Shown one piece after another: positions 44,027 through 61,763 of a stretch of DNA of 64,000 bases; the stretch's first letter is position 1; every line of letters begins with the position of its first letter. This DNA comes from Candidatus Levyibacteriota bacterium (GTDB taxonomy: Bacteria > Patescibacteriota > Microgenomatia > Levybacterales > UBA12049): assembly GCA_016182185.1 (NCBI GenBank), contig JACOXU010000001.1, positions 207,251 through 271,250 of the forward strand, written 5' to 3'. Under the pieces are notes generated by a model. That model was given only the letters and a program-made list of their open reading frames with translations, did not search any database and was not told the DNA's origin. Position numbers and translations under genes: made by a program.

Positions 44027-44030
44027 AAAT

Positions 44031-44963: not shown

Positions 44964-44996
44964 AGATTAATCTTCAATATCATATAGAATATACGA

Positions 44997-46208: not shown

Positions 46209-46237
46209 TAGATATCTAAATACGTAATAAACCCATG

Positions 46238-47143: not shown

Positions 47144-48156
47144 ATATGTAGAATTTTTTTGAGTGTTGCAAAAGAATATGCCAGAAGATACACCCAACAC
47201 ACAATTGGATGAAGAAACCAAGCTCGATCCCGAATGACAATGTATCCTCTTAAGCTGTCCATAAATGGCTTTACTAAAGTGATCGTATACAAAATGAATA
47301 AAATAAGTTTAATCGTGTCACTCAGTTTTTTTGGATTGTAGATATAATATCTCCTTTCCATTCTACTGTTTTTAGATTTAAAATAATACGAAAGAAGAAA
47401 GGCCATTCTTTTTTTCATCAACGTTCTTAGATTAACTGCCGTATCATGTGAGATGCTATTTTTAACTATCGCATACGTGTCGTATTTTTTATCAAGCAAA
47501 TCAACAAAAACATCCATGTGAAGAAACTTTGACGGATCACTTTGAGCATGCGCAAGTAATAAGTCTTTTCTATATACAACTCCATTGCATCCAACAGTCG
47601 GAAGAGTTTCGTGAGTGAACTTTACTATATAATAACGCTGTGTTTCCTTTAAAATTGTACCAACGGCCCACTTTTTCTTAAAATAAGGAAGTCGATCGGG
47701 TTTACCTATGTAGAAAACGACAGGATCTAACACTCCAAATAACGCAACGTATCTGTTAAAAATGTTGTCTGTTTCTGTATATGTAAAGTAAATTGTACCA
47801 GCATGAATTATTTTCTTTTCACTCATAAAAGGCTCAACCATTTGCTTGAGCCAATTTTTATGGGGAATGTAATTGTCTGCATCTAATGATACGATGAGAT
47901 TATTTTTTGCATACATCAAGCCAATTGCTCTTTGAGCCTCGGCGTTATGCGGAATCGGACTTTTAATTATTTTGAAAGAATGATTCTTTAATATTTTTTC
48001 TGTATTGTCAGTAGATCCTCCATCGATATTTAAATATTCAATTTTTTCTTTGGGGTAATCTTGAAACTTAATGGCCTGAACGCATTTTTTGATCGTCCTT
48101 CCATTATTGTAGGTAACAATTACTATCGAGATTTTTGGTAATTTTTTATTTTTCAT
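47140..48156 (-). CDS. GT2-family glycosyltransferase with C-terminal TM helices
   Basis: ISIVIVTYNNGRTI...NIDGGSTDNT...LDADN. Confidence 0.8.
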   Translation of the reverse strand: MKNKKLPKISIVIVTYNNGRTIKKCVQAIKFQDYPKEKIEYLNIDGGSTDNTEKILKNHSFKIIKSPIPHNAEAQRAIGLMYAKNNLIVSLDADNYIPHKNWLKQMVEPFMSEKKIIHAGTIYFTYTETDNIFNRYVALFGVLDPVVFYIGKPDRLPYFKKKWAVGTILKETQRYYIVKFTHETLPTVGCNGVVYRKDLLLAHAQSDPSKFLHMDVFVDLLDKKYDTYAIVKNSISHDTAVNLRTLMKKRMAFLLSYYFKSKNSRMERRYYIYNPKKLSDTIKLILFILYTITLVKPFMDSLRGYIVIRDRAWFLHPIVCWVYLLAYSFATLKKILHI

Positions 48157-49270
48157 TTAGTTTATGATTAAGTAAATAGTTATTGAAATTATTGAAGCTT
48201 TTAGACCAAGAGAAATTTTTACTCCACTTAATTGAGTTCTGATAAAGACTACTTCTGTCTTTATTTTCAATTAAACTGATTAAGGCATTAGCAATCTCAG
48301 TGGGCGATGGATTACTTGATAAAATTGTTCCTGTTCTTTTATGAATTACAGAATCCCGCAGACCCGTTACATTTGATACTATTGATGGTGTCCCGCATGC
48401 GGCCGCTTCGGTAACCACCATGCCCCAGCCCTCTTTTACCGATGGTAATATTAATGCCCACGCTTGCTGCATTAATCTAACTTTTTCATCGCGCATATCC
48501 CTTTTGAGAAAAAAATTATTTTTGTTAACTATAAATACATTTTTTTTGAGTTTTAATTTTTCGATTTGTGTTTTTAAGTTTTTCTCCTCTTTCCCATATC
48601 CTATTAAATATAATTTAGCTTTTGGATATTTAGAAATAACAATAATCATTGCAGAAACACATCTTTCAGGTCTTTTATTCCGAACAAACCTTGCGACAAA
48701 AATGAACGTTGGGTTTTCGGATTTCTTTTGTGGATAATATCTTTTGTGATCGAGTCCAAGAGGAAAAACATAAATATTCTTCTTATCAATCCCAAGAGAT
48801 ATTAAATCCTCTTTTGTGCTATTACTATAACAAACAACATCTGTATTCTTATAAGTAAGGTATTGTAACGGTTCAACTAGATAAGCCAGTATGGAAAAAG
48901 GGAACGGGTATTCATAAAAGAATACTTCCCTCGCCGCTTGATTAGTATATAAAACCCTTCTATCTTTACTTACATAAAGAGGCGTTTGCCAACAAGCCGT
49001 ATTTACGCAATCTAGCACGATGTCGGGTTTTACTTTTAGACTCCGATAATATTGAAAAGCATGAAAAAATACTGAATATTTTCCTCCTGAACGAATTATT
49101 TTTATTCCTTCCTGCACCTCTTCTTCGGAAGAATTCTTAAAACCACTGCAAAACCAAGTAACAGAATTACCTTTTTTGACAAGTCTTTTGACGAGCTCGT
49201 AAAGAATAATTTCAGCTCCTCCGCCTTCCGGATTCTTGATATCACGCCAATTAAGTATTAATATATTCAT
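48146..49270 (-). CDS. GT4-family glycosyltransferase
   Basis: MNILILNWRDIKNPEGGGAEI...EGWGMVVTEAAACGTPSIVSN. Confidence 0.8.
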   Translation of the reverse strand: MNILILNWRDIKNPEGGGAEIILYELVKRLVKKGNSVTWFCSGFKNSSEEEVQEGIKIIRSGGKYSVFFHAFQYYRSLKVKPDIVLDCVNTACWQTPLYVSKDRRVLYTNQAAREVFFYEYPFPFSILAYLVEPLQYLTYKNTDVVCYSNSTKEDLISLGIDKKNIYVFPLGLDHKRYYPQKKSENPTFIFVARFVRNKRPERCVSAMIIVISKYPKAKLYLIGYGKEEKNLKTQIEKLKLKKNVFIVNKNNFFLKRDMRDEKVRLMQQAWALILPSVKEGWGMVVTEAAACGTPSIVSNVTGLRDSVIHKRTGTILSSNPSPTEIANALISLIENKDRSSLYQNSIKWSKNFSWSKSFNNFNNYLLNHKLNEK

Positions 49271-50157
49271 TACAAAAGACTAATTATTTCTCGAAGATCA
49301 TCTATCCTGATTATTTTTCCCTCAATGTGCGCACCCTTTATTGTCTCGTCGACCAGAATGCCCATACCAAAACCAAGCTCACTTATTGGAACCACAAGAT
49401 CGTCTTCAAAAGAATTCCCAACGACTACCAAATCTTCTGAACCTACATATCTCCCTAAAACTTTATTTATCGTAGATATTCCTTTCTTAAAATAATCCCT
49501 TGAAGGCTTATCATGTGGATCTCCAACTATAATATCATTAAAATATAATCCTTCTTTTCGAAGCTCTTCCATACGCCTCTTTTTGAATTCTTCGGAATAA
49601 ATTGGGTCATAAGAAAAAACTCCGTTTTCAAAAAGTAACCTTCCATCACTACTTGTTAATAAATAAATTGGGATATTATGTTTTTTAAGCTCCTTGAATA
49701 AAATTTTTGCAGATATGAAAGTTTTTGCTTTTTTTGTAATTGCATGCCAATGAGCATCTACTACTGATTTTATTATTCTGTTGTCTATTTCTACCCCTAC
49801 ACTATCTGCAGCAATCTTAAGAAATACCTCCCTGCTCCATTTTTTTATAAATCCCCATTTGTCATTTATTAATTTCTGATGAAGACTTATCTTTGAAAGT
49901 ATCTCCTTATATGCCTTCTTACCACCCGGAACACCATCCCAATCCTTCTCGTTTGTTATGAGAAAACCTGCAATCATAAGACTTGTTATATAGTGAACAT
50001 GCTTAATAATACTATTTGCTTTATGTTTCTCTATTCCGTTATCTATAAGTTCTTGTTCCATGCTCTTCATTGCATAAAGATGACCCGTTGCTGTATTAAT
50101 CAAAGTATGGTTAACATCAAATAGAAAAATTTTATTCTTTAAATTCACGCTTTTCAT
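49270..50157 (-). CDS. HAD-superfamily-like hydrolase (atypical motif I)
   Basis: IFLFDVNHTL (the DxDxT position, with D-x-N), LLTSS, a K...D pair and a terminal VVVGNSFEDD (GDxxxD-like). Weak. Confidence 0.35.
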   Translation of the reverse strand: MKSVNLKNKIFLFDVNHTLINTATGHLYAMKSMEQELIDNGIEKHKANSIIKHVHYITSLMIAGFLITNEKDWDGVPGGKKAYKEILSKISLHQKLINDKWGFIKKWSREVFLKIAADSVGVEIDNRIIKSVVDAHWHAITKKAKTFISAKILFKELKKHNIPIYLLTSSDGRLLFENGVFSYDPIYSEEFKKRRMEELRKEGLYFNDIIVGDPHDKPSRDYFKKGISTINKVLGRYVGSEDLVVVGNSFEDDLVVPISELGFGMGILVDETIKGAHIEGKIIRIDDLREIISLL

Positions 50158-50237
50158 GTTTTTTGCATAAACCGTTTACTTCTTTATAGAAACACCTGCG
50201 GTTTTTTAAGTGTTGTCAGCCCTTTAATATCCCAGTG

Positions 50238-50990
50238 TTAATGAGTTTTATTTATTTTACTATAATAATTAAGTATTTTAAGTCTGTAGAATACAGCAAT
50301 TGTATCCCACAATGCGTTAAATATTATATTCCAAAAATTTCTAGAGGTTATACTTCCGCTTTTAAAATTGAGTTTTATAGGAGACTCATAAATTCTTGTA
50401 TATCCCAGTTTATGTGCCAGAGCTAAAACTTCTATGTCAAAGGCAAATCTTTTAACAATTATCATCGGGAAAACTTCTTTTGCAACCCGTTTTTTAAATA
50501 TTTTAAGTCCAACCTGCGTGTCTTTAATTTCAAATCCAAAAAGTGCGTGGGTAAGAGTTCTATATCCCCAAGATAGGATTTTTCTAGTAAATGGGTAATT
50601 CACCTTTGATTCAGGATGAAGTTTACTGCCCATAACAATGTCTGCTTTATTCCAATCCATAATATCAAGCATTATTGAAATTTGCGTCGGATCTAAATCC
50701 ATCCCCGCATCAATAAAACCTATTGTTTCGCCTCTAGCTTCGCTTACTCCGTATTTAATTGCAAAACCCTTTCCTTTGTTTTCTTCGTACCCGAAGATTT
50801 TTATATTATTATTTTTTATTGATTTTAGAATTTCATATGTTTTATCCACAAAACCATCAACAACTATAAGTATTTCGTAATTAATATGAAGTGAGGTTAA
50901 AATTCTATTAAGATTCTTAATATCTCTAATTATAGTTTTTTCTTGTTTATAGGCAGGAACTATTATTGAAAGAAGATTTCCTTCACTCAT
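50238..50990 (-). CDS. GT2-family glycosyltransferase (DPM1-like)
   Basis: SIIVPAYKQEKTI...LIVVDGFVDKT...IDAGMD. The start was moved to the internal ATG (MSEGNLLSII) to avoid an 83-nt overlap; the longer form would add an N-terminal TM helix. Confidence 0.7.
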   Translation of the reverse strand: MSEGNLLSIIVPAYKQEKTIIRDIKNLNRILTSLHINYEILIVVDGFVDKTYEILKSIKNNNIKIFGYEENKGKGFAIKYGVSEARGETIGFIDAGMDLDPTQISIMLDIMDWNKADIVMGSKLHPESKVNYPFTRKILSWGYRTLTHALFGFEIKDTQVGLKIFKKRVAKEVFPMIIVKRFAFDIEVLALAHKLGYTRIYESPIKLNFKSGSITSRNFWNIIFNALWDTIAVFYRLKILNYYSKINKTH

Positions 50991-51537
50991 TAGTATTGAA
51001 AAGTTTCCTAATAATATCCCAATTAAAAAAAGTGTCATCGGGAAATTTAATACCAGCTCTATCAAAAGGCAATCTTTCTTCTTCTTCTGGATTATAAAGT
51101 GCAGTCGGAAAGTTTAGCAAAATCGCTGGCTTTTGAGATACGACTAGGAACCCATGAAGAGTCTTCTTTGGTATCAACAGGATATATGGGTCAATGTCAG
51201 ATTGCATGTGAAATAAATTCAATAATCCTTTTGTCGGTGATTCTTCTCGGTTATCTGCAATTGCAACTACTGTTGCACCTTGGACAACAATAAATCTGTC
51301 GTCCTGAACTGTTGGATGATAATGCCAAACGTCTTCATCTCGAGCCGTACCTGGAGGAGTAACAGAGTAATATTGCATAAAAAATTCTCTTTTTTTTCCG
51401 TAAATCTCCTTCCAATCTATCCTTAAAGTTTCAACCAGGACTCCCGATTCGTCGCTATTTATTTTGAGCGGATAAAGAAAAACGTCTTTAATAAGATCAG
51501 CACTATCCTTATTCTTAAAATCAATAAACTCAATCAT
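50983..51537 (-). CDS. rmlC: dTDP-4-dehydrorhamnose 3,5-epimerase
   Basis: KINSDESGVLVE..., ESPTKG, LLIPKKTLHGF and YNPEEEERLPFDRAGIKFP match RmlC family motifs. Confidence 0.75.
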   Translation of the reverse strand: MIEFIDFKNKDSADLIKDVFLYPLKINSDESGVLVETLRIDWKEIYGKKREFFMQYYSVTPPGTARDEDVWHYHPTVQDDRFIVVQGATVVAIADNREESPTKGLLNLFHMQSDIDPYILLIPKKTLHGFLVVSQKPAILLNFPTALYNPEEEERLPFDRAGIKFPDDTFFNWDIIRKLFNTNE

Positions 51538-51581
51538 TGATAAATGATATCAAATATTAATTGTTATTCCAACTACGTGCT

Positions 51582-52901
51582 CTAATTTCTTGGATTATTA
51601 ACAAAAGTAATGGCTTTTATAATTCTATTAAAATTTCCGTATTCTTTAAAATAGTATGCGAGAAGAATTATAAAAATTACCGATGAGGCAATAAGGGAAA
51701 CGCCAATTACCTGAAAAAAAGTTCTATGGAAAGCCGAAATAAGTATTATTTGAGAGAGCACCCCTAATCCAATAATTATAAATACATTTGTTTTTTTTAA
51801 AGAAAGGAAAAAATTTGCACATACATTTAACAAGCTAAATACTACAATAAACAAACCATAAATTCCAAGATAGGGAGAGATTTCTACATACTCTCTTCCT
51901 CCTAAAAAGAAATTAATAGTAAGTAGTGGAAAGAGAAAGTAAAATAGCATTATCACAATTGAAGGAATAGCTACCAATATTAAAGCCAGGTAAAATAAAG
52001 AATTATAATCTTTCCCGAGATTATGTCTTTTAATAAGCAAAGGGAACATAACAGATACTATAGGGCTAGTAAAATAGAATATTACCTTGCCTGCGAGAGA
52101 AAGACCTGCATATAGCCCTGCATCATGAGCATGGAAAAAATGCTTAACTAAAATTATGTCTATTGAAGTAAGAGAATTAAGAGAAAGAATTGTAATAGTG
52201 GTTGGAAGAGCATAAATTATGATTTCTTTTGTTGGAAATTTAATATCCATAGTTTTCTTTTTATTTATCAAGAAACGAAGCGGTATAAATGTAAAAAATA
52301 AAGGTAATAAAAAAGCGAGCACTATTGCCCAAAGAGCAGCGAATACCTTAAATCCCAAAAATACCAGCAGTCCTCCAATCGCAATCTTTAAAGCCCCTCC
52401 TGCTATCTGAGTAAAAGAAATAAACGAAAATTTAAGCAAGCTTTGTAGATAAGCATTATTAACTATTCCCAAATAATTAATGCTCACAATAAAGCCAGTT
52501 AAAATAACATACCAAATATTATCTAGATTTAAAAATTCTTTTATTGAGATCGAAAATAAAACAAATCCCAGAAATATAAAAATGGAAAAAATTATAGACA
52601 ATTTTAATAATCTAGAATATAATACTTTAGCTTCATCGATTTTGTTTTTGGTAAAATAGTCAGCGGCAAATTTAATAATTACAGTCGTTATAGACTGAGC
52701 AGGAATTCCTATAAGAATAAAAAGTGATAATAAACTAGCATAAGCTCCATAATCTACGGTATTAAGATTTCGAGCAAGGAGAAGATTAAATAAGAAAGCA
52801 AAAATGTTGGCAATTAAAGATCCTGTGAATATATAAAAACTCCCTGTTATTAATTCATGTTTTATAAATTTTTCTCCTATATTTAATAAATTCTGTTTCA
52901 T
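51582..52901 (-). CDS. wzx: Wzx-type polysaccharide/oligosaccharide flippase (MOP superfamily)
   Basis: A 439-aa protein with about 12 TM helices and N-terminal ...FTGSLIANIFAFLFNLLLARNLNTVDYG, as in polysaccharide biosynthesis protein family members. Confidence 0.6.
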   Translation of the reverse strand: MKQNLLNIGEKFIKHELITGSFYIFTGSLIANIFAFLFNLLLARNLNTVDYGAYASLLSLFILIGIPAQSITTVIIKFAADYFTKNKIDEAKVLYSRLLKLSIIFSIFIFLGFVLFSISIKEFLNLDNIWYVILTGFIVSINYLGIVNNAYLQSLLKFSFISFTQIAGGALKIAIGGLLVFLGFKVFAALWAIVLAFLLPLFFTFIPLRFLINKKKTMDIKFPTKEIIIYALPTTITILSLNSLTSIDIILVKHFFHAHDAGLYAGLSLAGKVIFYFTSPIVSVMFPLLIKRHNLGKDYNSLFYLALILVAIPSIVIMLFYFLFPLLTINFFLGGREYVEISPYLGIYGLFIVVFSLLNVCANFFLSLKKTNVFIIIGLGVLSQIILISAFHRTFFQVIGVSLIASSVIFIILLAYYFKEYGNFNRIIKAITFVNNPRN

Positions 52902-52902
52902 A

Positions 52903-54033
52903 TTAAGCTATAAAATAACCTCTAAGAAAGAAGGATGTTAATATGATTAATAATATTGATAATATTGTCAATAATAATAGTTTATATACAGTTTTTTTAA
53001 TTCTAGCCAGTAATATAAAAATGGGAAAAACAACAAGCGTATATCTTGGCATGGAAGATAACGTCCCTGAAAATGTTGGAACTATAATAGCAAATAAACT
53101 AAACAATACATAGGAAAACCTAATGTTTTTTCTAAATAACATTAGCAAAAGTAAAAATGCAGAAAAAATAATAATTTCCAAGAGAGCGATAAGATAATTA
53201 TGTGTTAGAGGATTGAGGGTAGTCAATATTTTCACATATCTAAAAAATAATTGTGGCAGTAAAATTATTTCCCCCCCGCTTCTTTCTGCCCCGAAAGCAG
53301 GCTGAGTATGAATGAATAAGAAGGAATCTTGGTAGTTAACCCATAAGTAAATCATATAAGCAAGTACTCCAGATGAAGAAATTAGAGTAAAAGAAAGAAA
53401 ATTTAAGAGATATGACTTTAAATTACTCACATTTTTAATTCTAGAAAGATAAAATTCTAGTAAAAGAGGAATCAAAAGAAAAATTCCGATTATTCTTGTT
53501 GCTGAAGCAAATCCAATTAAAATACTCGTCAAAGTAAATTTTTGCCTACGCATGAAATAAAAAGACGAAAAGACAAAGGCAAGAAATAAAGATTCAGTAT
53601 ATATACTGCCTAAAAAAAATGCTGTTGGGAAAAACAACAAGAAAATAAGAGTCCACTTTACGGTATCAGTTTTAAAATCCATTGAAGCTAACTTATATAA
53701 AAATATTAGAGAGATTAATAAACTAACATGAACAATAAATAACGCGCTGAGAATATAATTTCCCATAAAGAAAAGAGAAAAAAATTTAATTAATAACGGA
53801 AATAAGGGGAAAAATGCCTGTTGATAAATACCGTATCCATATTTAGCAATGTTTAGATAATGCTCTCCGTCAAAATTCGCCCATGGAATAAGACCTGTAA
53901 ATTGAGGGTTTAAAATAATATATTTACTGAAATATTCAACAACATAAAGAACGAGTTTCCAAATAACAAATAATATAAAAATAAATAAAAATAAATCCCT
54001 ATTGCCCTTTAATAACTTCTTCATATACGGCAT
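52903..54033 (-). CDS. polytopic membrane protein, PIG-V/DUF2029-like mannosyltransferase-type GT-C; start uncertain
   Basis: WANFDGEHYLNIAKYGY...AFFPLFPLL resembles PIG-V-type GT-C motifs. The track ORF start (54195) would overlap the upstream GT4 by 197 nt. An internal ATG at 54033 (or 54024) is preferred. Confidence 0.4.
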   Translation of the reverse strand: MPYMKKLLKGNRDLFLFIFILFVIWKLVLYVVEYFSKYIILNPQFTGLIPWANFDGEHYLNIAKYGYGIYQQAFFPLFPLLIKFFSLFFMGNYILSALFIVHVSLLISLIFLYKLASMDFKTDTVKWTLIFLLFFPTAFFLGSIYTESLFLAFVFSSFYFMRRQKFTLTSILIGFASATRIIGIFLLIPLLLEFYLSRIKNVSNLKSYLLNFLSFTLISSSGVLAYMIYLWVNYQDSFLFIHTQPAFGAERSGGEIILLPQLFFRYVKILTTLNPLTHNYLIALLEIIIFSAFLLLLMLFRKNIRFSYVLFSLFAIIVPTFSGTLSSMPRYTLVVFPIFILLARIKKTVYKLLLLTILSILLIILTSFFLRGYFIA

Positions 54034-55066
54034 TCGTTTCTTTAGCTGTTTTTTGCCAGGAAAATTTTTTGGACTGAATTGATCCTTTTTCTGAAAGTTC
54101 TTTCTGTAAATTTGTATTCGAAAAAACCTCTTCAATTCCCTCTCTAATACTATTGGCATCATAGGGATCAACATAGAAAACAGCATCTTCTGCAACTTCG
54201 GGAATTGATCCCTCTCTTGAGGTTACTACCGGACAACCGCAAGACATTGCCTCAAGAATCGGCAGTCCAAATCCCTCATACAAGCTCGGCATTGCAAAAA
54301 CTGATGCGTAATTATAAAGAGAAACTAAATCTTTTTGATCCACAAATCCAAGCCTAATAAATCTGCCATCATTTCTAATCATTTCTTGAATTTTTCTAAG
54401 ATCCTGATTCCATGGATTATCAATGTCGTAATCTTTAGATATTAAAGCTTCTCCAATCATTACGATCTTAAGGTTCGTTTTTTTAATCGCTTCGATTAAC
54501 CGAGGTAAATTCTTATTCCATGTCACATCACCTACATAAAGAACAAAACTTTCCGGCAGGCTGTATTTCTTTCTCAAATTCTGAATTTTGAATTCTGAAT
54601 TTTGAATTCTTTTGAATTCTTCTCCCGCAGCTAAATATACAACACTAATTTTATTTTCATCAATTCCGGCGAATTTGCTTATATCTCTCTTTGATGACTC
54701 AGAATCTGTAATAATAGTTTCTACCTTATTCAGCGCTTTTTTTTGTATTTGCCACCTCAATTCTCCTTTTATGCCTCTTGGAAAATAATTGGGAAAAACA
54801 AGAGGAGTTAAATCATGAACAGTGACAATTGTCTTAAATTTTTTAAAAAAGGGCAGCGTCAAAAAAAAGGGTTCAAAATAAGGGTAGTGGACTAAATCTA
54901 GTTTTTGGAGTAATTTTTCTCCTCGAGTAAAAAAAATATACTTATTTTCTGGATAGTACTTCAATAGAGCCTTTTTAAGATTTTTTAAATAAAAGCCCGT
55001 ACCCCTAACTCTGTGCTGTAAATAATTTTTCTTTTCCAATGGAGAGATATCGATACCAATTATCAT
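53999..55066 (-). CDS. GT4-family glycosyltransferase; its interdomain linker contains a heptamer/14-mer repeat
   Basis: MIIGIDISPL...EAMSCGCPVVTSREGSIPE. The linker EEFKRIQNSEFKIQNLRKK is encoded by (AATTCTGAATTTTG)x2 and related copies at 54577-54620. Confidence 0.8.
   Translation of the reverse strand: MIIGIDISPLEKKNYLQHRVRGTGFYLKNLKKALLKYYPENKYIFFTRGEKLLQKLDLVHYPYFEPFFLTLPFFKKFKTIVTVHDLTPLVFPNYFPRGIKGELRWQIQKKALNKVETIITDSESSKRDISKFAGIDENKISVVYLAAGEEFKRIQNSEFKIQNLRKKYSLPESFVLYVGDVTWNKNLPRLIEAIKKTNLKIVMIGEALISKDYDIDNPWNQDLRKIQEMIRNDGRFIRLGFVDQKDLVSLYNYASVFAMPSLYEGFGLPILEAMSCGCPVVTSREGSIPEVAEDAVFYVDPYDANSIREGIEEVFSNTNLQKELSEKGSIQSKKFSWQKTAKETNAVYEEVIKGQ
54577..54620. repeat. 14-nt tandem repeat (AATTCTGAATTTTG)x2 plus degenerate copies inside a GT4 coding sequence
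   Basis: Two exact 14-mers at 54577-54604, followed by aattcttttg aattcttc. Confidence 0.8.
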
Positions 55067-56697
55067 ATTATCTTATATCGAAAATTTTTGAAAATTATTA
55101 TCGTAAATATTACGAAAGATATCAATGAAAGAGCTTCAGCAAAATTTCTGACCGAAGTATTTCCAAATTTTAGTTCAACAACATGTTTCCCTCTTGGAAC
55201 TAAAAATTTAATTAAACCGTTTTCAGTACGTCCCAGAGCTGAAGGTCTATTATCTATAGTAACATACCAGCCGGGAAAATAAGCAGTGTTTACAATAATT
55301 TCGCTTTTTTCTTTTATCTTTATTTCAAATAAGTATCTCGATGGGTTTAATTTTTTTATGAAAATTTCTCCGTGATTTTTATTAATAGATATCTTTTTAT
55401 CACTTCTGGAAAATGATCCATTGATCCAATTTGTGTTAAATAAATTCCCTGGACTATTTGTCCCGTCCATAAAATTTGATCGGGTTAAATAGTAATTATC
55501 TTCTCTATCAAAATAATGAGCTGGTCGAGCATAACCTATCCCGAGCAGGAATACTAAAAAAATTATGATTCCGGCTAGTATTTTTGAATGATATACAGAA
55601 AATAGGCTTCCAGCCATGAACGACGCTGTAAGCATCACGATACTTAAAAATCGCCATGGAAACTGAAAATAGTTCATAAGCGGGAAAAAATCCCAAATAG
55701 AGATAGAGAACTTTGTTATCAATAAAACTGATAAAAAAAACCAAATTAAGAAAAACAAGAGGATTTTAAATTTTTTATCTTTCCTCTTCAGCAAGGGGAC
55801 AAGTAAAACAATACTTGCTAAAACCGCAAAAATATTTGCTATTCCAATTTGAACTGACATTTCGTTTCCTCCCCCCGTTCCGAAAAAGCCGGAACCCCAC
55901 GATGGAATAATGAGCTGGTAAATCTCGGCAAAGTTTCTTTTGACATCAAAAATTTGAAGACCGGTAACGTATTTTAGTTCAAAAATTGCCGGAATCCAAA
56001 AAATAGACGCTAACCCTAGTCCGAGAAAAATAACGGCTACAGAATTTTTTAAACTTGTAATTATATTATTACCTAAATAACTTAGTAATAACATATAAGA
56101 CAGGACGAATGGAAAAAAGGCAAAGGCAAGTATATTGTGTGCAAATATTATTAAAGCCAAAATTAAACCGGAAAATGCAATAAAGATTTTTTCATCTCTA
56201 AATATTGCTTTTGTTACAGCCCATAAAAAAACGGGAAATAATCCCAAAGCCCAAACCTCACCGACTGATCCTCTAATATAGATGTCTACAAAAAAATATG
56301 GTGAAAATGAATAGAAAATTGCGCCAACTACTCCTCCTAACTTACCCCAAAATTCTTTACTCCATAAATAAAAAGATATAGCACCAAAAACATAGGCCAT
56401 GAACATATTCAACTTAAAGGCATTAATAAAGCTAATTCCAAGCAAATGCAAGAACGATGCAATATAGTTAGGTAAGGGGTAAACATAGTTAAAAAGTGGT
56501 ACTCCCAAACCGAAATTTAAGTCCGGTGCCCAACGGGGATATAAATTTCCATCTGCTAAAACTTTATAAAATTCATAAAAACGCACAATATGATACTCAC
56601 CGTCATGGGTTGGAATGAGACCGGAATAAAGCAAAGGGAATCCTCCTATCAAAGGAAAAATAATTAACAAAACCCATACTAGATATTTCTTGACCAT
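55063..56697 (-). CDS. polytopic membrane protein, uncharacterised GT-C-like family (paralog of 60120..61763)
   Basis: Shared N-terminal motif PTHDGEYHIVRF...NLYPRWAPDLNFGLGVPLF.YVYPLPNY. The C-terminal soluble domain has YFPGWYV...VPRGKHVVE, followed by a TM anchor. Confidence 0.45.
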   Translation of the reverse strand: MVKKYLVWVLLIIFPLIGGFPLLYSGLIPTHDGEYHIVRFYEFYKVLADGNLYPRWAPDLNFGLGVPLFNYVYPLPNYIASFLHLLGISFINAFKLNMFMAYVFGAISFYLWSKEFWGKLGGVVGAIFYSFSPYFFVDIYIRGSVGEVWALGLFPVFLWAVTKAIFRDEKIFIAFSGLILALIIFAHNILAFAFFPFVLSYMLLLSYLGNNIITSLKNSVAVIFLGLGLASIFWIPAIFELKYVTGLQIFDVKRNFAEIYQLIIPSWGSGFFGTGGGNEMSVQIGIANIFAVLASIVLLVPLLKRKDKKFKILLFFLIWFFLSVLLITKFSISIWDFFPLMNYFQFPWRFLSIVMLTASFMAGSLFSVYHSKILAGIIIFLVFLLGIGYARPAHYFDREDNYYLTRSNFMDGTNSPGNLFNTNWINGSFSRSDKKISINKNHGEIFIKKLNPSRYLFEIKIKEKSEIIVNTAYFPGWYVTIDNRPSALGRTENGLIKFLVPRGKHVVELKFGNTSVRNFAEALSLISFVIFTIIIFKNFRYKII

Positions 56698-57809
56698 AGA
56701 ATTTTTTTGGAATAAAAGAAAATTAGTAAGATTAACGATGGGAAAAATAGAAATAATGTTTTTAATACTGGTGTTATCTCAAAATGAGTTCCTAAAAACA
56801 TAAAAGGTATATAACGCAAGAGAAGACCGAAAGATAAAGATATAGATAAATAAAAAATGATCTTTTTTTCAGGAATCAAAGCTGTAAACACTAAGAACCA
56901 TATTGCATACCACGGATATATCTCCTCCCTTAACGGGGACAGAAGAAAAATTAGAAACATTGATATTGCTGAAAAATAAATAAATTTTTCAATGTTTAAA
57001 TTTTTATTCTTAATTATTTGAAAGATTCCATAAAAATAAATTGGAATTAAAAATAATGTAGAATATTTTATCAGTACTGAAAGTATTATTGTTAATAAAC
57101 CACTCCAAATTTTTTTCTTTATTAGGAAAAACAATGAAGCAATTGCCAAAAACATCATCACAGTATCATTATGTCCTGAAACCATTGTTTCAATTATAAC
57201 TAGAGGATTTAAGCCAAAAATTATTAATGATATATTTTTTTTTGAAATTTTCCAAATGAAATATAAAGTCCCTATGTAAAAAAGAATATTTAAAAATTTA
57301 AAGCTAAATAGAATTATAAGAAAATTTCCAAAACCCAAGGAAAATGGTATTACGGACAGCAAAATCCAAAATGGTCCATAAAGAGCAATCTTATTTGCGG
57401 CATGTGTAAAAGACAAAAGTGGATCATTTATAAATTCAATTGGCATAATAATATAGGGGTTTTCATGATAAAAGAAAGCAACCTTGGCTGTTGAAATATA
57501 ATTAAAAATATCATATGAAAGCATTGCTGGATATGAAAAAAGTAAGGAAAGAGTTGTAATTGTTATTAAAACTACTACTCCCCTTTTGTTAAGTAACTTA
57601 TTCCTTCCAAACTGAATAAATGATATATAAAATATAAAAAAAATGATGATACCTATTAGATATATTACTGTTGTGATTTCTCTATTATTAAATGCAAAAC
57701 CTGTATACAAATTACTTAAATATATTAAGTTAGGATCTACAAATAGATATGAAAATATGCTAAACGACAGTAGAAAGAGTCCGTATAAAATGAGGAATAA
57801 TTTTTTCAT
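56679..57809 (-). CDS. polytopic membrane protein, putative GT-C glycosyltransferase (376 aa)
   Basis: At least 10 TM helices and no soluble domain. Hypothetical. Confidence 0.35.
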   Translation of the reverse strand: MKKLFLILYGLFLLSFSIFSYLFVDPNLIYLSNLYTGFAFNNREITTVIYLIGIIIFFIFYISFIQFGRNKLLNKRGVVVLITITTLSLLFSYPAMLSYDIFNYISTAKVAFFYHENPYIIMPIEFINDPLLSFTHAANKIALYGPFWILLSVIPFSLGFGNFLIILFSFKFLNILFYIGTLYFIWKISKKNISLIIFGLNPLVIIETMVSGHNDTVMMFLAIASLFFLIKKKIWSGLLTIILSVLIKYSTLFLIPIYFYGIFQIIKNKNLNIEKFIYFSAISMFLIFLLSPLREEIYPWYAIWFLVFTALIPEKKIIFYLSISLSFGLLLRYIPFMFLGTHFEITPVLKTLFLFFPSLILLIFFYSKKILWSRNI

Positions 57810-58333
57810 AAATTTTTCCTTCGAATAGATATAGACATTTCTATATCTTTCTTAAGATAGATTTTGGTTGAAAAAGATTTCTCCGGCCTCCAATAAACTT
57901 TTTCCGGAATTCCTTCTCTCAACATCAATAACGCTTCTATATGCTTTAGGCTCGCCTCTTTTAATAATGTCCGTTTTGAATCAATGCTCTCTTTATTAGC
58001 TTTCGAATTGTCAAGATTTGATCGAATATTATAAAAATATTCGTCAGATTTTTTTAGCGCTTTTTGCCCTAATAAAAACTGGTCATATTCAAAAAGCGTT
58101 TTTGCTTCAACTAGATATTTATCTGCTTGTTTAAGATTATAATTAAACTGCCCAAATTTACCAAAATACCAGTATTTTAAGATTTTATCCTTAATAAGAT
58201 TGATTTTGTAAAAAGGGCTTCCTGGCATAAATGATGGGTATGGAAGTACATAAGAAGATTGAGCAAAAATTGGACTATAGAAAAAAAATAAAAACATGAT
58301 AGAAAGGAGAAAAGATCGAAGAATCCACCTCAT
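57806..58333 (-). CDS. small secreted protein, paralog B of 28304..28846 (LPYPxxxPxxPxYK motif)
   Basis: Signal peptide (MRWILRSFLLSIMFLFFFYSPIFAQS), then YVLPYPSFMPGSPFYKINLIKDKIL. Its start codon sits inside the (TTTTGAA)x4 repeat. Confidence 0.55.
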   Translation of the reverse strand: MRWILRSFLLSIMFLFFFYSPIFAQSSYVLPYPSFMPGSPFYKINLIKDKILKYWYFGKFGQFNYNLKQADKYLVEAKTLFEYDQFLLGQKALKKSDEYFYNIRSNLDNSKANKESIDSKRTLLKEASLKHIEALLMLREGIPEKVYWRPEKSFSTKIYLKKDIEMSISIRRKNL

Positions 58334-59325
58334 TTTGAATTTTGAATTTTGAATTTTGAATTATTTTTGCGCCATTCCCATGCGGTTTTAACAATTGTTT
58401 CAAGATCAGAATATTTTGGCTCAAACCCCAATTCCTTTTTAATCTTTGTCGGATCCGCAATTAAAACATCTACATCCCCTGATCTTCTTGAGGAGTTTTT
58501 TACCTTAAAATCAATTCCTGATATTTTTTTTACCATTTCAAGTACTTCTTTATTTGAATATCCTTTTCCGGTTCCAACGTTGTAATAGTAATCATCTGGA
58601 TTTTCTTTTAGTTTTTGAAGCGTTAAAAGATGAGATTCAACTAAATCAATCACATGAATATAATCCCTAATACATGTTCCATCAGGGGTATCATAATCAT
58701 TTCCAAAAAGACTAAATTCGGAGTTTCCTAAGGTTGCTTTAATTGCTAGAGGAATTATATGAGTTTCAGGATCATGATCTTCTCCCATATTTCCATCAAG
58801 AGAGGCGCCAGCTGCATTAAAATAGCGAAGACTTGCAAAGCTCAATCCAAAGATTTTATTATACCAAGCAAGAATTTTCTCAACCATTAATTTACTTTCT
58901 CCATAAGGGTTAGTGGGAAGAGTCTGGTGATCCTCAGATATAGGAGTTTTAATTGGATTCCCATAAACTCCGGCCGTAGAAGAAAAAACTAAAGATTTAA
59001 TATTGTGCCTTACAGCTTGCTCGATCAAATTAAGAGATCCAAGAGTATTGTTTTGAAAATACAATTTGGGATTTTCCATAGATTCTGCCATAGATATATA
59101 TCCTGCGAAATGGATCACGGCATCGAACTTATCGGTGGAAAATGTATTTTCTAGTATTTCAGGATTTAAAAGGTCTCCTTGAACAAACTTTGCTTTCGTA
59201 TCAATAGCTTCTCTTTGACCGCGCTCCAAACTATCAAGCACAACCACATCATCTCCATTTTTTAGAAGTCGCTTAACCATAAAGCTTCCAATATAACCTG
59301 CCCCACCCGTAACCAAGATTTTCAT
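58330..59325 (-). CDS. galE: UDP-glucose 4-epimerase
   Basis: MKILVTGGAGYIGSFMVKRL...AVIHFAGY...FSSTAGVYG...YGESK matches GalE throughout. The C-terminus NNSKFKIQNSK is encoded by a heptamer repeat. Confidence 0.8.
   Translation of the reverse strand: MKILVTGGAGYIGSFMVKRLLKNGDDVVVLDSLERGQREAIDTKAKFVQGDLLNPEILENTFSTDKFDAVIHFAGYISMAESMENPKLYFQNNTLGSLNLIEQAVRHNIKSLVFSSTAGVYGNPIKTPISEDHQTLPTNPYGESKLMVEKILAWYNKIFGLSFASLRYFNAAGASLDGNMGEDHDPETHIIPLAIKATLGNSEFSLFGNDYDTPDGTCIRDYIHVIDLVESHLLTLQKLKENPDDYYYNVGTGKGYSNKEVLEMVKKISGIDFKVKNSSRRSGDVDVLIADPTKIKKELGFEPKYSDLETIVKTAWEWRKNNSKFKIQNSK
58333..58362. repeat. heptanucleotide tandem repeat (TTTTGAA)x4 spanning the galE stop codon and the next gene's start
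   Basis: Four exact copies at 58333-58360. It encodes the GalE C-terminus KFKIQNSK-stop and overlaps the ATG of 57806..58333. Confidence 0.85.
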
Positions 59326-60104
59326 AATTTTAAGTACTTAATATATGATACAGGAAATCGAAGAGATGAGAAAAGAGAGAAGACAAATCCTGGCCACAAA
59401 TCCATAAAACCTTTATGCCTTAAATAAGTAAAAAGAAACCAATAAACAGGTTTAAAAGTTAAGGAGGCGCCTGCAAAAATTATTTTGTAAAAAATATTTT
59501 TATTTTTTAGCTTTTCTTTAATTTGCGATGCAATAAGATCAGTATATCTATCCCACTTTAAAAGATAATCGTTAAAATCTTTATATGGATAATGTAATAA
59601 CGGGTTTTTAAGATATGTGACTTCTCCTTCAACTTCTGCTTGTTCATGAACATCCTTCTGAGGAAGCCTTCCTTTTCCCCTTTTATACAGTCTTAAAGTA
59701 TAGTCAGGATACTGCCCGCCCTTCATAAGAAATCTACCCAAAAACCAATTTTTTCTCGGAATCCAATATCCATTAACATGACTGACTATTGATGACTGAC
59801 TATTGATGACTGACTTAATCTCTTTTCTAAGTCCTTTGGAGACCACTTCATCTGCATCAAGTTGCAAGATCCAATCAGAAGTTGCCATATCTATAGCCAT
59901 TTGCTTATTGATATGAAAAATAGGTTTATTTGTTGTGATTTTAATTTTGGCTCCGAATTGCTTCGCCTTATCAACTGTCTTGTCACTTGAAGCTCCATCA
60001 ACAACAACAATCTCATCTGCCAAACCATCTACGCTTTCAAGACAAGCTGGAAGATTCTTTTCCTCATTGTAAGTTGCCAAAACCACAGACAAAGTTGCCT
60101 TCAT
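59322..60104 (-). CDS. GT2-family glycosyltransferase; contains a 14-bp tandem repeat
   Basis: LSVVLATYNEEKNL...IVVVDGASSDKT...LDADEVV. The segment KSVINSQSSIVSHVNG is encoded by (ATGACTGACTATTG)x2.7 at 59779-59818. Confidence 0.75.
   Translation of the reverse strand: MKATLSVVLATYNEEKNLPACLESVDGLADEIVVVDGASSDKTVDKAKQFGAKIKITTNKPIFHINKQMAIDMATSDWILQLDADEVVSKGLRKEIKSVINSQSSIVSHVNGYWIPRKNWFLGRFLMKGGQYPDYTLRLYKRGKGRLPQKDVHEQAEVEGEVTYLKNPLLHYPYKDFNDYLLKWDRYTDLIASQIKEKLKNKNIFYKIIFAGASLTFKPVYWFLFTYLRHKGFMDLWPGFVFSLFSSLRFPVSYIKYLKL
59779..59818. repeat. 14-nt tandem repeat (ATGACTGACTATTG)x2.7 inside a GT2 coding sequence
   Basis: atgactgactattg atgactgactattg atgactgact. Confidence 0.85.
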
Positions 60105-60119
60105 AATACATATGATACC

Positions 60120-61763
60120 CTAAAATTTCGTTTTTATAAACTTGAATAAGTAAAAAGTTAATATACCAAATAAAACAAACGTTGAAGCAATATTGGAAAA
60201 CAATCTTAATTTAGTTTCTCTGTAAACAATTTCAATATCGTGTTTTCCTTCCGGGACGTAAAAGGTTATTAAGCCTCGGAAACGTTGATCTTGAAACTCA
60301 ACTATTGCAGGTTTACTGTCCAACAAAACCGTCCAGCCTGGAAAATATAATGTATTTTCAAGAATTCTGCTTGTTTTCTGGGCGTTAATTTTATAAATAC
60401 GTTTCGTCGTTGACCTTTGAACGAGCTCTATTGATGCTTTTCCGTCAATCAGCTGTATTTGCTCTAAAGCTCTCTTTTCCATAAACCTCACAGACCAGAT
60501 TGGGGAACTTTCACCGGTGTCAGTTGTGCTGTTATAAATTCCAGTGTAAAAGTTTTCAGGTTTGTAGAGATAATCTATCGGCCTCATATAATCTTTGCTC
60601 AAAAACAAAAGTAAAATAATCGCAAAGACTGTAAACCAGATTCGAGATTTACGAAAAACCTGCTCAAAAACGACTGCTCCTAATACAGACGTTGTGAAAA
60701 CCGGAATTGCCAAGAATCGCCAGGGAAATTGAAAATTTTGAAGGAGAATAAATTTCTGCCAAATAAAACTAGAGATAGGAAGCATTAAAAAAATCGCAAT
60801 TAATGTATAGACGATTAATCCTAAAGAGAATACCAGGTTTTTTCTATCTTTTTTTATATAAAATTTAGTAAGTAATATAATAGACAAAATAAAACTAGCC
60901 CAATGTAGAATTCCAAGTTGGACCGTAAATTGTCCGGATATACCATAGCTCCACGGTCCATATAGTAAATCTCTGAAATTTACAAACCTTCCGATATAAC
61001 CTCCGGCCGTCACAATATTCCTTAATGTATATTTTCCCTCCAAAAGTCCCGGTATCCAGAAGAATGCAGAAAGGCCGAATCCGATGAGCATTAAAGAAGT
61101 AAGATTTATGATATAAGATTTACGATTTTTAGATAAATTAAGAAGAAAAAATCCATAAAAAATAATAAATGGCATAAGCATAAGGCTAATGGCATTATGA
61201 GAAAGAATTAGGAACGCCAAGGAAAAACCTCCTAGAAAAATGTTGTTCATATTTTTCTTTTTATAAATACTATAAATAAAAAATAAAACAAGAGGTATAA
61301 AAGCAAAAGCGAGATGCTCTCCTATATCTCCCCTTACATAAACTTCAACAAATCTATAAGGCGCATGTGTATATAAAACTGCTCCAAAAAGAGCAGAAAA
61401 CTTGTTAAGAAAAGATGATAACCATAAATACATAAATATTATTGATAATATTGTGCCTAATCCGAAAACTATTTTCACTGAATCAACCAATGAAAATCCC
61501 AAGAAATGAAAAAATGAGGCTGTATAAGATGGAAAAGGATACAGAAACTCAAGGATCGGATGGCCATATCCCCAATTAAGGTTCCCCGCCCAACGAGGAA
61601 TAATATTTCCCTCGGAAAGATTTTGGTAAAAATTTGCAATTCTTGCCACATGATCCTGTCCATCATGAGTAATCGGAAGTCCTGAATGGAAAAGAGATAT
61701 CGCTGGAATAATACCGATAAAAATTAAAACTAAATATAAAAAATGTTTTTTATATTTTTTCAT
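60120..61763 (-). CDS. polytopic membrane protein, uncharacterised GT-C-like family (paralog of 55063..56697)
   Basis: PITHDGQDHVARIANF...NIIPRWAGNLNWGYGHPILEFLYPFPSY. The C-terminus has YFPGWTV...VPEGKHDIE and a TM anchor. Confidence 0.45.
   Translation of the reverse strand: MKKYKKHFLYLVLIFIGIIPAISLFHSGLPITHDGQDHVARIANFYQNLSEGNIIPRWAGNLNWGYGHPILEFLYPFPSYTASFFHFLGFSLVDSVKIVFGLGTILSIIFMYLWLSSFLNKFSALFGAVLYTHAPYRFVEVYVRGDIGEHLAFAFIPLVLFFIYSIYKKKNMNNIFLGGFSLAFLILSHNAISLMLMPFIIFYGFFLLNLSKNRKSYIINLTSLMLIGFGLSAFFWIPGLLEGKYTLRNIVTAGGYIGRFVNFRDLLYGPWSYGISGQFTVQLGILHWASFILSIILLTKFYIKKDRKNLVFSLGLIVYTLIAIFLMLPISSFIWQKFILLQNFQFPWRFLAIPVFTTSVLGAVVFEQVFRKSRIWFTVFAIILLLFLSKDYMRPIDYLYKPENFYTGIYNSTTDTGESSPIWSVRFMEKRALEQIQLIDGKASIELVQRSTTKRIYKINAQKTSRILENTLYFPGWTVLLDSKPAIVEFQDQRFRGLITFYVPEGKHDIEIVYRETKLRLFSNIASTFVLFGILTFYLFKFIKTKF

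What the first reader, a model, noticed from the sequence alone, without database searches (positions are those of the whole stretch)
54577..54620. A second GT4 carries the same type of repeat at the same structural position
In 53999..55066 the linker EEFKRIQNSEFKIQNLRKK is encoded by two exact 14-mers (AATTCTGAATTTTG) plus degenerate copies. Again this lies between the N-domain and the FVLYVGD start of the C-domain. Two different GT4 paralogs with repeat-encoded linkers at the homologous site argue against coincidence.
Basis: seen in the sequence. Interest (0 to 1): 0.5.

Follow-up and report, generated by a model that had tools for sequence, protein, structure and literature searches.

The report
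Seven-base repeat inside glycosyltransferase linker
The connector between the two halves of this sugar-transferring enzyme is written by about five copies of a 7-base DNA repeat, one of many such in-frame runs in this group of tiny uncultured bacteria; it behaves like a tolerated, slowly renewed product of DNA-copying slips, not like an on/off switch.

Summary
The repeat is real. Window 54577..54610 is a 7-nt tandem array (AATTCTG/AATTTTG, 4.9 units, equal to an exact 14-mer x2.4). It lies in a GT4 glycosyltransferase of a Candidatus Levybacteria MAG and encodes R153-N163 of the interdomain connector. A second GT4 paralog (array 8929..8959) carries one at the homologous site.

The phenomenon is not GT4-specific. 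All strong tandem repeats in the window have period 7 or 14. They also sit in a membrane protein, a GalE tail, a GT2 and two other GT4-like genes. In 739 kb of related loci, 43 of 50 tandem repeats have period 7.

At the orthologous linker, 18 of 79 species carry strong heptamer arrays with 14 different units and nearly constant linker length. Units are more alike within a gene (0.81) than between orthologs (0.62), which indicates concerted evolution. GT4#1 orthologs fall into length classes 39/46/53/60 aa, steps of three heptamers.

A phase-variation switch is disfavoured. A frame-blind scan found 0 of 45 out-of-frame alleles, and near-identical contigs showed no copy-number differences. The arrays also host small GC-rich in-frame inserts.

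Verdict: a coding heptanucleotide microsatellite at a permissive site. The lineage-wide pattern is of moderate interest.

The parts
54577..54610 (-). The finding. A heptanucleotide tandem array (coding strand AGAATTC/AAAATTC, 4.9 units, equal to a 14-mer x2.4) that encodes R153-N163 of the GT4 interdomain connector.
53999..55066 (-). GT4-family GT-B glycosyltransferase (355 aa, called GT4#2 here). It is 100% identical to a Candidatus Levybacteria MAG protein.
8929..8959 (-). Perfect heptamer array (coding strand AAATCTC x4.4) encoding KSQISNLKSQ at the homologous connector of paralog GT4#1.
8372..9499 (-). GT4-family glycosyltransferase paralog (375 aa, GT4#1), 35% identical to GT4#2.
12953..12984 (-). 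Degenerate heptamer array (TTCAAAT-like, 4.6 units, 84%) encoding LKFQISNFKFQI in a 687-aa membrane protein with no Pfam match.
58332..58362 (-). Perfect heptamer array (TTCAAAA x4.4) that forms the C-terminal tail NSKFKIQNSK* of the GalE-like epimerase and runs into the ATG of the next gene. The same site carries arrays in several orthologs.
59778..59815 (-). 14-nt repeat x2.7, made of two alternating heptamers (AGTCAGT/CATCAAT on the coding strand), inside a GT2 gene.
1577..1613 (-). Degenerate heptamer array (AGTTAAA-like, 5.3 units, 76%) encoding IKLKVKSEKLKVKL. It lies in a C-domain loop, not the connector, of GT4-like paralog 1157..2353.
61..80 (-). Heptamer array (AAAATTT x2.9) in the N-domain of a sixth GT4-like gene that runs off the left edge of the window.
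82..111 (-). 30-nt GC-rich insert (CTCGCCCCGCGAAGCTTGGGCGAAGCGGGG), translated in frame as LAPRSLGEAG. It is flanked on both sides by AAAAATT and abuts the 61..80 array.

Best explanation
The tract is a coding heptanucleotide microsatellite. This Levybacteria lineage, and related Microgenomates/CPR bacteria, accumulate tandem arrays of arbitrary A/T-rich 7-nt units. Inside genes the arrays survive only where the protein tolerates them: interdomain connectors, termini, gene junctions and membrane-protein segments.

In this GT4 enzyme the array occupies a fixed tract of about 34 nt between the last N-domain strand and the helix that precedes the first C-domain strand. Because 7 is not a multiple of 3, the array is read in all three frames. 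Three units make one 7-residue peptide period (FKIQNSE/K).

The tract is renewed from time to time by slipped-strand or template-switch events. Only outcomes that keep the reading frame and roughly the same connector length persist (net change 0 or +/-21 nt, i.e. 3 units or 7 residues). As a result the units of one gene stay alike while the unit sequence drifts between species, which is concerted evolution.

No regulatory role needs to be assumed. The peptide is a passive spacer and short helix start.

Shown here: the repeat, its placement, the excess of period 7, array recurrence at orthologous sites with different units, the 7-residue length classes, and the absence of out-of-frame alleles.

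Inferred: slippage as the generating process, the 21-nt step, and neutrality.
For: The repeat is real and non-random.

Period 7 dominates. In 739 kb of Levybacteria-like loci, 43 of 50 tandem repeats have period 7. Of these, 32 lie in frame inside long ORFs and most of the rest lie at gene junctions.

At the orthologous connector, 18 of 79 distinct sequences have a period-7 score of at least 15. None does so for periods 4-6 or 8-12, and none of 7,900 shuffles does. The 18 arrays use 14 different units.

Connector length is almost constant whether or not the array is intact: 72 or 75 nt in 43 of 45 sequences.

Unit identity is 0.81 within a gene and 0.62 between genes at the same position. Array borders are fixed at nt 3-36 after the GEEF codons. 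Proteins that are 86% identical outside the linker carry different units, IQNSESIIQNL versus VQSSKFKVQSL.

GT4#1 orthologs fall into length classes of 39, 46, 53 and 60 aa, with 6, 71, 11 and 1 members.

The structural model gives pLDDT 87-93 across the segment and shows coil plus a helix start at the domain boundary of a GT-B fold.

Heptanucleotides were previously reported as the most abundant long SSR class in prokaryotic genomes rich in 5-11 nt repeats, and polymerase slippage was proposed as the cause (Mrazek et al. 2007, as summarised in PMC4679880).
Against: Generic slippage does not explain why only 7-nt units occur. In coding DNA, units of 3, 6 or 9 nt should be tolerated far better, yet they are almost absent.

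Perfect arrays cluster at about 31 nt (4.4 units) even in C-terminal tails, where frame constraint is weak.

No intermediate or polymorphic state was caught, so the renewal process itself is unobserved.

Arrays are over-represented in GT4 genes of the window: 4 of 7 arrays lie in about 10% of the sequence. The connector is hit in 9 of 11 distant CPR GT4 genes. That could reflect something more specific than tolerance.

All fetched loci are glycan-biosynthesis clusters, so the genome-wide distribution is untested.
Confidence: 0.65

Rival explanations
1. Phase-variable contingency locus. Slippage by single 7-nt units would switch the glycosyltransferase, and other glycan genes of the cluster, on and off. 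The population would then hold a mixture of surface-glycan types as a hedge against phage or host.
For: The unit length is not divisible by 3. The array sits mid-gene, where a frameshift would remove the whole C-domain. At least seven such arrays lie in glycan-biosynthesis genes of one cluster. There is precedent in neuO, where a translated heptanucleotide repeat gives on/off switching (PMC13001214).
Against: A frame-blind DNA pattern scan of metagenome contigs found 45 orthologs, and every gap length was a multiple of 3, so 0 of 45 were out of frame. In neuO, 65.6% of 64 genomes are OFF and the repeat number ranges from 3 to 53.

No copy-number difference appeared in contigs of 95.8-100% identity that span arrays: L008/L123/L105, L016/L096, L107/L119 and window/L081/L082.

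The tracts are short, 4.4-5.6 units.

Three truncated cluster members were inspected. One was a scaffold gap. One was a junction to GC-rich sequence 61 nt from a contig end. One was a junction to another array-bearing region, possibly a k-mer assembly chimera. None was a +/-7 slip.

Low-frequency switching below the consensus level is not excluded.
Confidence: 0.08
2. Composite selfish element. The heptamer arrays and the small GC-rich inserts (about 16-36 nt, often 30 nt, some palindromic) found inside them would belong to one mobile or repair-linked system, possibly driven by a Y1 (IS200/RAYT-like) transposase. That system would create, target or renew the arrays. This would parallel the very small dispersed repeats reported inside tandem heptamers of Nostoc (Elhai et al. 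2008; recalled from memory, paper not held).
For: GC-rich inserts sit inside the arrays of many orthologs and are translated in frame: L083, L084, L085/L086, L013, L049, L068, P0136/P0220 and others.

The window has one at 82..111, flanked by AAAAATT on both sides.

The same palindrome type, TCCGCC-N2-3-GGCGGA, recurs in three different MAGs, each time next to an array (L068 twice, L057, L101).

Some inserts fold well: L068 z = -4.3, and a nested 81-nt insert in L134 z = -2.8.

A Y1_Tnp gene lies near a GT4#1 ortholog in L135 (E = 4e-7).
Against: Most arrays carry no insert. Unit and insert sequences differ widely between genomes. The window's 30-mer is single-copy in 64 kb and shares only an 11-mer with L083.

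Several inserts do not fold better than shuffles.

In L083 the insert adds exactly 30 nt with no extra heptamer compared with the window's array, so a 7-bp target-site duplication as the source of the units is not supported.

Inserts may simply land, or survive, at the same permissive sites.
Confidence: 0.15
3. Protein-level selection. The connector would need a 7-residue periodic peptide, for example a spacer or helix whose length tunes domain closure or membrane contact. The DNA repeat would then be a by-product of that need.
For: Connector length is strongly conserved. The segment is modelled confidently, and half of it is helix. In NeuO, enzyme activity is reported to rise with repeat number.
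Against: A 7-residue protein period corresponds to 21 nt, not 7 nt. The DNA is periodic at 7 nt, including synonymous positions.

The encoded peptides differ widely between species: IQNSEFK, MENGKWK, LEIGNWK, YQISNIK, VQSSKFK, IQDTRYK.

The same kind of array forms C-terminal tails, gene junctions and hydrophobic membrane segments.
Confidence: 0.05

Closest known systems
Long simple sequence repeats with 5-11 nt units in prokaryotic genomes, heptanucleotide class (Mrazek, Guo & Shah 2007, as summarised in PMC4679880)
   Same: Head-to-tail arrays of arbitrary 7-nt units, far longer than chance allows. Seven nt is the preferred unit length of the lineage. Polymerase slippage is the proposed origin.
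   Different: That survey found that coding-region repeats are mainly multiples of three. Here 7-nt arrays are mostly inside ORFs, read through in frame, short (4-5 units) and recurrent at orthologous protein positions. CPR genomes were not part of that survey.
neuO heptanucleotide repeat (5'-AAGACTC-3')n of E. coli K1 prophage CUS-3 (Deszo et al. 2005; PMC13001214)
   Same: A 7-nt repeat inside a coding region of a surface-glycan-modifying enzyme. It is translated in all three frames into a 7-residue peptide repeat, and full-length protein is made only when the frame is kept.
   Different: neuO has 3-53 units at the 5' end of the gene, varies between and within strains, and is OFF in about two thirds of genomes. 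The arrays here have 4-5 units at an internal connector, were never found out of frame (0 of 45) and are identical in near-identical genomes.
Cyanobacterial STRR heptanucleotide repeats and the very small dispersed repeats inserted in them (Mazel et al. 1990; Elhai et al. 2008). Recalled from memory, not read here.
   Same: Lineage-wide tandem heptamers, with small GC-rich, partly palindromic inserts of about 20-30 nt sitting inside the heptamer arrays.
   Different: STRRs are described as mainly intergenic, with a few favoured units. Here the units are diverse and most arrays and inserts are translated. Homology between the inserts was not tested.
TAACTGA direct repeats of marine Beggiatoaceae (PMC4679880)
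   Same: Heptamer direct repeats in sets of two to six copies, often directly upstream of start codons or at gene ends. This resembles the GalE-tail/next-gene junction arrays here.
   Different: That case has one specific heptamer that contains stop codons and is largely intergenic. Here there are many different stop-free heptamers inside ORFs.

Membership tests
GT4-family GT-B glycosyltransferase (the host gene) | N-terminal Glyco_transf_4 domain and C-terminal Glycos_transf_1 domain | tested here: met
   Pfam PF13439 at residues 39-144 (E = 4e-12) and PF00534 at residues 165-328 (E = 1.9e-34)
GT4-family GT-B glycosyltransferase (the host gene) | Two-Rossmann-domain GT-B fold resembling solved GT4 enzymes | tested here: met
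   AlphaFold model with pLDDT 87.7 and pTM 0.88. Best PDB matches are MshA, GlgM, BshA, PimA and WaaG, with TM up to 0.76 and E down to 3e-19.
GT4-family GT-B glycosyltransferase (the host gene) | E-x7-E motif in the C-domain | tested here: met
   E264-GFGLPIL-E272 is read directly from the translation. Both residues are invariant in 38 orthologs.
SSR-mediated phase-variable (contingency) locus | Tandem repeat in an ORF or promoter, with a unit length not divisible by three | tested here: met
   7-nt unit inside the ORF
SSR-mediated phase-variable (contingency) locus | Out-of-frame (OFF) alleles present among genomes or populations | tested here: not met
   0 of 45 orthologs out of frame in a frame-blind scan. 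Three truncated relatives were not +/-7 slips.
SSR-mediated phase-variable (contingency) locus | Copy number differs between closely related strains or within a population | tested here: not met
   Arrays are identical in contig pairs of 95.8-100% identity and in two Logan assemblies of this organism. Read-level heterogeneity could not be tested.
Prokaryotic heptanucleotide long SSR | Head-to-tail copies longer than expected from composition | tested here: met
   0 of 30 window shuffles and 0 of 7,900 linker shuffles reach the observed scores
Prokaryotic heptanucleotide long SSR | The lineage shows an excess of 7-nt units over other unit lengths | tested here: met
   43 of 50 repeats in 739 kb have period 7. 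The sample covers glycan-cluster loci only, not whole genomes.
Cyanobacterial STRR | Mainly intergenic location and a few lineage-specific consensus heptamers | tested here: not met
   32 of 43 arrays are inside ORFs. There are 14 units at one site alone.
Small mobile palindromic elements (REP/SDR-like), for the GC-rich inserts only | Many dispersed near-identical copies within one genome, and insertion polymorphism between relatives | tested here: inconclusive
   The TCCGCC..GGCGGA palindrome occurs twice in L068 and once each in L057 and L101. The window's insert is single-copy in 64 kb. Whole genomes were not available.

The most novel reading that the evidence does not exclude
Microgenomates/CPR bacteria, and perhaps some Chloroflexi and cyanobacteria, may have an active, length-specific process that writes and rewrites arrays of about 4-5 heptamers at fixed tracts. 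This process may be coupled to GC-rich mini-inserts of about 30 nt that are translated in frame. It would be a cryptic mobile or repair-linked system that remodels permissive protein segments. It could also give low-frequency frameshift switching of surface-glycan genes, below what consensus assemblies show.
Probability: 0.15. Interest if true: 0.7.

Novelty: new variant of a known kind. Interest (0 to 1): 0.45.

Why it matters
For this gene alone the result is ordinary: a low-complexity connector with no sign of regulation.

The wider pattern is more interesting. In a whole CPR lineage, 7-nt repeats that should be frame-breaking are kept in frame inside genes. They recur at the same protein positions across species with only 50-70% protein identity. 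Their unit sequence turns over in concert at constant length, and they host tiny GC-rich inserts that become part of the protein.

This offers a comparative handle on an old, unsolved question: why prokaryotic tandem repeats so often have 7-nt units.

There are also practical consequences. Arrays of about 31 nt with shared units are potential k-mer assembly breakpoints. Two contigs inspected here break or change partner exactly at an array. In addition, these arrays should not be annotated as phase-variable on unit length alone.

Tried and rejected
1. Chance was rejected by shuffles.

2. A period of 14 as the basic unit was rejected. It is two diverged heptamers.

3. Phase variation was tested four ways, all negative.
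   - A frame-blind metagenome scan.
   - Near-identical contig pairs.
   - Two Logan assemblies of the same organism.
   - Truncated members of 90% clusters. P0262 is a scaffold gap. P0249 joins GC-rich sequence 61 nt before a contig end. P0242 joins another array-bearing region and may be an assembly chimera.

4. Heptamers as 7-bp target-site duplications of the GC-rich inserts: not supported. The L083 insert adds exactly 30 nt and no extra unit.

5. The idea that all inserts are hairpins was rejected. Only some fold better than shuffles.

6. Further copies of the window's 30-nt insert: none in the window, and only an 11-mer shared with L083.

7. Known RNA families, promoters and terminators at the site: no Rfam hit in the window, and consensus sites at chance level.

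8. Literature on heptamer repeats in CPR, Patescibacteria or Levybacteria: nothing found. Elhai et al. 2008 is not held.

Full report
**Observation.** The sequence is as described. AATTCTGAATTTTG occurs exactly at 54577-54590 and 54591-54604. Tandem Repeats Finder reports 54577..54610 as period 14 x2.4 at 100% and period 7 x4.9 at 85%. On the coding (minus) strand the tract is AGAATTCAAAATTCAGAATTCAAAATTCAGAATT. It encodes R153-N163 (RIQNSEFKIQN) of ORF 53999..55066. The basic unit is therefore a heptamer with two alternating variants. Thirty dinucleotide-preserving shuffles of the window gave no tandem repeat of any period from 4 to 15 at the threshold used. The real window has such repeats only at periods 7 and 14.

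**The gene and the site.** The ORF is 100% identical to a protein annotated as a family 4 glycosyltransferase of a Candidatus Levybacteria MAG, on a 617-kb contig.
- Pfam finds Glyco_transf_4 at residues 39-144 and Glycos_transf_1 at residues 165-328.
- An AlphaFold model (pLDDT 87.7, pTM 0.88) matches solved GT4 enzymes such as MshA, BshA, PimA and WaaG.
- In the model, residues 153-157 are coil and 158-168 are the helix just before the first C-domain strand (175-178).
- No known RNA family, and no excess of promoter- or terminator-like sites, lies there.

**Other arrays in the window.** Every strong tandem repeat in the window has period 7 or 14, and all lie on the coding strand of minus-strand genes.
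- 8929..8959, (AAATCTC) x4.4, in a second GT4 paralog.
- 12953..12984 in a 687-aa membrane protein.
- 58332..58362, (TTCAAAA) x4.4, which forms the C-terminal tail of a GalE-like epimerase and runs into the start codon of the next gene.
- 59778..59815, two alternating heptamers, in a GT2.
- 1577..1613, degenerate, in a third GT4-like gene.
- 61..80 in a GT4-like gene cut by the left edge of the window.

An alignment of the five complete GT4-like paralogs puts the arrays of 8372..9499 and 53999..55066 in the same connector. Two other paralogs have no array and a connector about 10 residues shorter.

**Related genomes.** A scan of species-representative genomes returned 80 loci. In 739 kb of Levybacteria-like loci, 43 of 50 tandem repeats have period 7. 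Of these, 32 lie in frame inside long ORFs, and most of the rest lie at gene junctions.

At the orthologous connector the DNA shows heptamer arrays with different units in different species. Examples are AGAATTC, AAGAATT, AAATTGA, GAAATTG, AAAATGG, TAAGACT, AAATATC, AAAGTTC, AGATACA and AGAATCA. Of 79 distinct connector sequences:
- 18 have a period-7 score of at least 15;
- none reaches that score at periods 4-6 or 8-12;
- none of 7,900 shuffles reaches it;
- the 18 arrays use 14 different units.

A more distant GT4 group in Roizmanbacteria and other Patescibacteria (33-38% identity) has arrays at the same place in 9 of 11 loci. The 27 non-CPR GT4 genes have none there.

**Dynamics.** Connector length is nearly constant whether or not the array is intact: 72 or 75 nt in 43 of 45 sequences. 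The array occupies a fixed tract, nt 3-36 after the GEEF codons. Units within one gene are 81% identical to each other. Units at the same position in different genes are 62% identical, and the next 35 nt are 68% identical between genes.

Proteins that are 86% identical outside the connector carry different units, IQNSESIIQNL versus VQSSKFKVQSL. This is the signature of concerted evolution of a tract that is old and repeatedly homogenised.

In the orthologs of the other paralog (GT4#1), the segment falls into length classes of 39, 46, 53 and 60 residues, with 6, 71, 11 and 1 of 120 proteins. These are steps of exactly 7 residues, or three heptamers. Copy number therefore does change between species, but only frame-preserving states are seen.

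**Test of phase variation.**
- A DNA pattern that anchors on GGAGARGARTTY and on the YVGDVTWNKN codons, with a free gap of 60-90 nt, is blind to reading frame. It found 45 metagenome contigs. Gap lengths were 69, 72, 75 and 87 nt, so none was out of frame.
- As a benchmark, the translated heptanucleotide repeat of neuO ranges from 3 to 53 copies and is OFF in 65.6% of 64 genomes (PMC13001214).
- Contigs of 95.8-100% identity that span arrays show no copy-number difference: L008/L123/L105, L016/L096 and L107/L119. The same holds for two Logan assemblies of this very organism.
- Three truncated members of 90% clusters were inspected. One was a scaffold gap. One was a junction to GC-rich sequence 61 nt from a contig end. 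One was a junction to another array-bearing region, possibly a k-mer chimera. None was a +/-7 slip.
- Sub-consensus switching cannot be excluded without reads.

**GC-rich inserts.** About one ortholog in ten has an extra GC-rich stretch inside the array, translated in frame. Examples are PASPSEAGRT in L083, TCC(A)TTCGGCAAGCTCAGGA in L085/L086, TCCGCCAACTGGCGGA in L068 and L057, and a nested 81-nt hairpin in L134.
- Several inserts are exactly 30 nt.
- Some fold far better than shuffles (z = -4.3 and -2.8), and others do not.
- The window has one at 82..111 (LAPRSLGEAG), flanked by AAAAATT on both sides and next to the 61..80 array. It is single-copy in the window and shares an 11-mer with the L083 insert.
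- In L083 the insert adds exactly 30 nt and no extra heptamer, so the heptamers are not target-site duplications of such inserts.
- A Y1 (IS200-like) transposase gene lies near one ortholog. This is only a lead.

**Explanation.** The best-supported reading is a coding heptanucleotide microsatellite at a permissive site. It is renewed by slippage or template switching and filtered by selection for reading frame and connector length. I put this at about 0.65.

Shown here: the repeat, its placement, the period-7 excess, recurrence at orthologous sites, concerted evolution, the 7-residue length classes and the absence of out-of-frame alleles.

Inferred: the slippage mechanism, the 21-nt step and neutrality.

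Not explained: why only 7-nt units occur when triplet multiples should be better tolerated in ORFs, and why perfect arrays cluster at about 31 nt even in C-terminal tails.

Rivals: phase variation (0.08), a composite mobile or repair-linked element that includes the GC-rich inserts (0.15), and protein-level selection for a heptad peptide (0.05).

**Comparison with what is known.** Heptanucleotides were reported as the most abundant long SSR class in prokaryotic genomes rich in 5-11 nt repeats, with polymerase slippage proposed as the cause and coding repeats expected to be multiples of three (Mrazek et al. 2007, as summarised in PMC4679880). neuO shows that a translated heptamer repeat can exist. 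Cyanobacterial STRRs and the small dispersed repeats inside them are a close parallel, but I recall this from memory and could not read the paper.

I found no paper describing such arrays in CPR bacteria. I therefore class this as a new variant of a known kind. The variant is mostly intragenic, kept in frame, short, positionally conserved and not hypervariable.

**Limits.** All fetched loci are glycan-biosynthesis clusters chosen through the GT4 gene, so the genome-wide distribution and any functional enrichment are untested. Assemblies are consensus sequences. The shuffling controls ignore codon structure.

Noticed in passing
window 82..111 (minus strand), next to array 61..80: A 30-nt GC-rich insert (CTCGCCCCGCGAAGCTTGGGCGAAGCGGGG; 6-bp stem CCCCGC/GCGGGG) is translated in frame as LAPRSLGEAG in the N-domain of a GT4-like gene cut by the window edge. 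It is flanked by AAAAATT on both sides. It shares GCGAAGCGGGG with an insert in the GT4 connector of L083.
   Followed up: partly
window 58332..58362, with L004 6669..6699, L013 6666..6696, L113, L130, L108, L104: The C-terminal tail of the GalE-like epimerase is a perfect heptamer array that ends in the ATG of the next gene. About 12 of 55 orthologs have such a tail (3-4.4 units). The others stop right after WKWHxK. L101 and L097 have small palindromes (TCCGCCAAAGGCGGA + TCGGCCTCTGGCCGA; TCCCGACAAAGTCGGGA) inside the tail array.
   Followed up: partly
window 59778..59815: An exact 14-nt repeat x2.7 (ATGACTGACTATTG) sits in a GT2 gene and encodes SVINSQSSIVSH. It consists of two alternating heptamers, like the finding itself.
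   Followed up: partly
window 9501..10040 (minus), directly upstream of GT4#1: A 179-aa ORF consists only of a GT4 N-terminal domain (Pfam Glyco_transf_4, residues 55-179) and ends where the connector would begin. The same arrangement is conserved upstream of GT4#1 orthologs in L132-L136. It is therefore not a recent frameshift product. It may be a split GT-B partner.
   Followed up: no
L053 (3474-3615, 6517-6699, 7367-7521, 5415-5486, 9303-9374) and L065 (768-918, 14846-14936): Two Anaerolineae contigs carry pairs of heptamer (and octamer) arrays in inverted orientation, about 10-100 nt apart, outside long ORFs. They resemble hairpin-forming STRR-like intergenic elements. The period-7 preference therefore extends beyond CPR.
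   Followed up: no
L135 8048..8722 (minus): An IS200-like Y1 transposase gene (PF01797, E = 4e-7, above the Pfam cut-off) lies in a Levybacteria-like contig, 1.3 kb upstream of the GT4#1 ortholog. It is a candidate enzyme for small palindromic elements.
   Followed up: no
L136 3560..3667 and L137 570..700: Two contigs lose the C-domain of the GT4#1 ortholog exactly at the heptamer array. One continues into GC-rich sequence and ends 61 nt later. The other continues into an intergenic region with inverted arrays of the same unit, followed by an unrelated PEGA-domain gene. These may be real rearrangements at arrays or k=31 assembly chimeras.
   Followed up: partly
P0264 versus P0062 (90% cluster of GT4#2 orthologs): Two proteins about 93% identical over the N-domain have entirely different connector repeats, KKLEIGNWKLEIKKRY versus ERFKTDDLRVRKIKEKY. 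This points to very fast unit replacement or allelic recombination. P0264 is a read-derived fragment, so a chimera cannot be excluded.
   Followed up: no
L029 8981..9020, L039 3320..3354, L008 2957..2989, L035 3726..3759, and AATACTT arrays in L001, L003, L004, L006 and L031: T-rich heptamer arrays encode hydrophobic stretches (for example FFILYSLFIIH) at an orthologous position of a neighbouring membrane protein. The arrays are therefore also tolerated in probable transmembrane segments, and a second orthologous hot spot exists.
   Followed up: no
window 1..64000: Almost the whole window is one minus-strand glycan-biosynthesis cluster. It holds six GT4-like genes, several GT2 genes, GT-C-type membrane proteins (PMT_2, PTPS_related/YfhO, AftD-like), three DegT aminotransferases, a GalE-like epimerase and a Wzx-like flippase.
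   Followed up: partly
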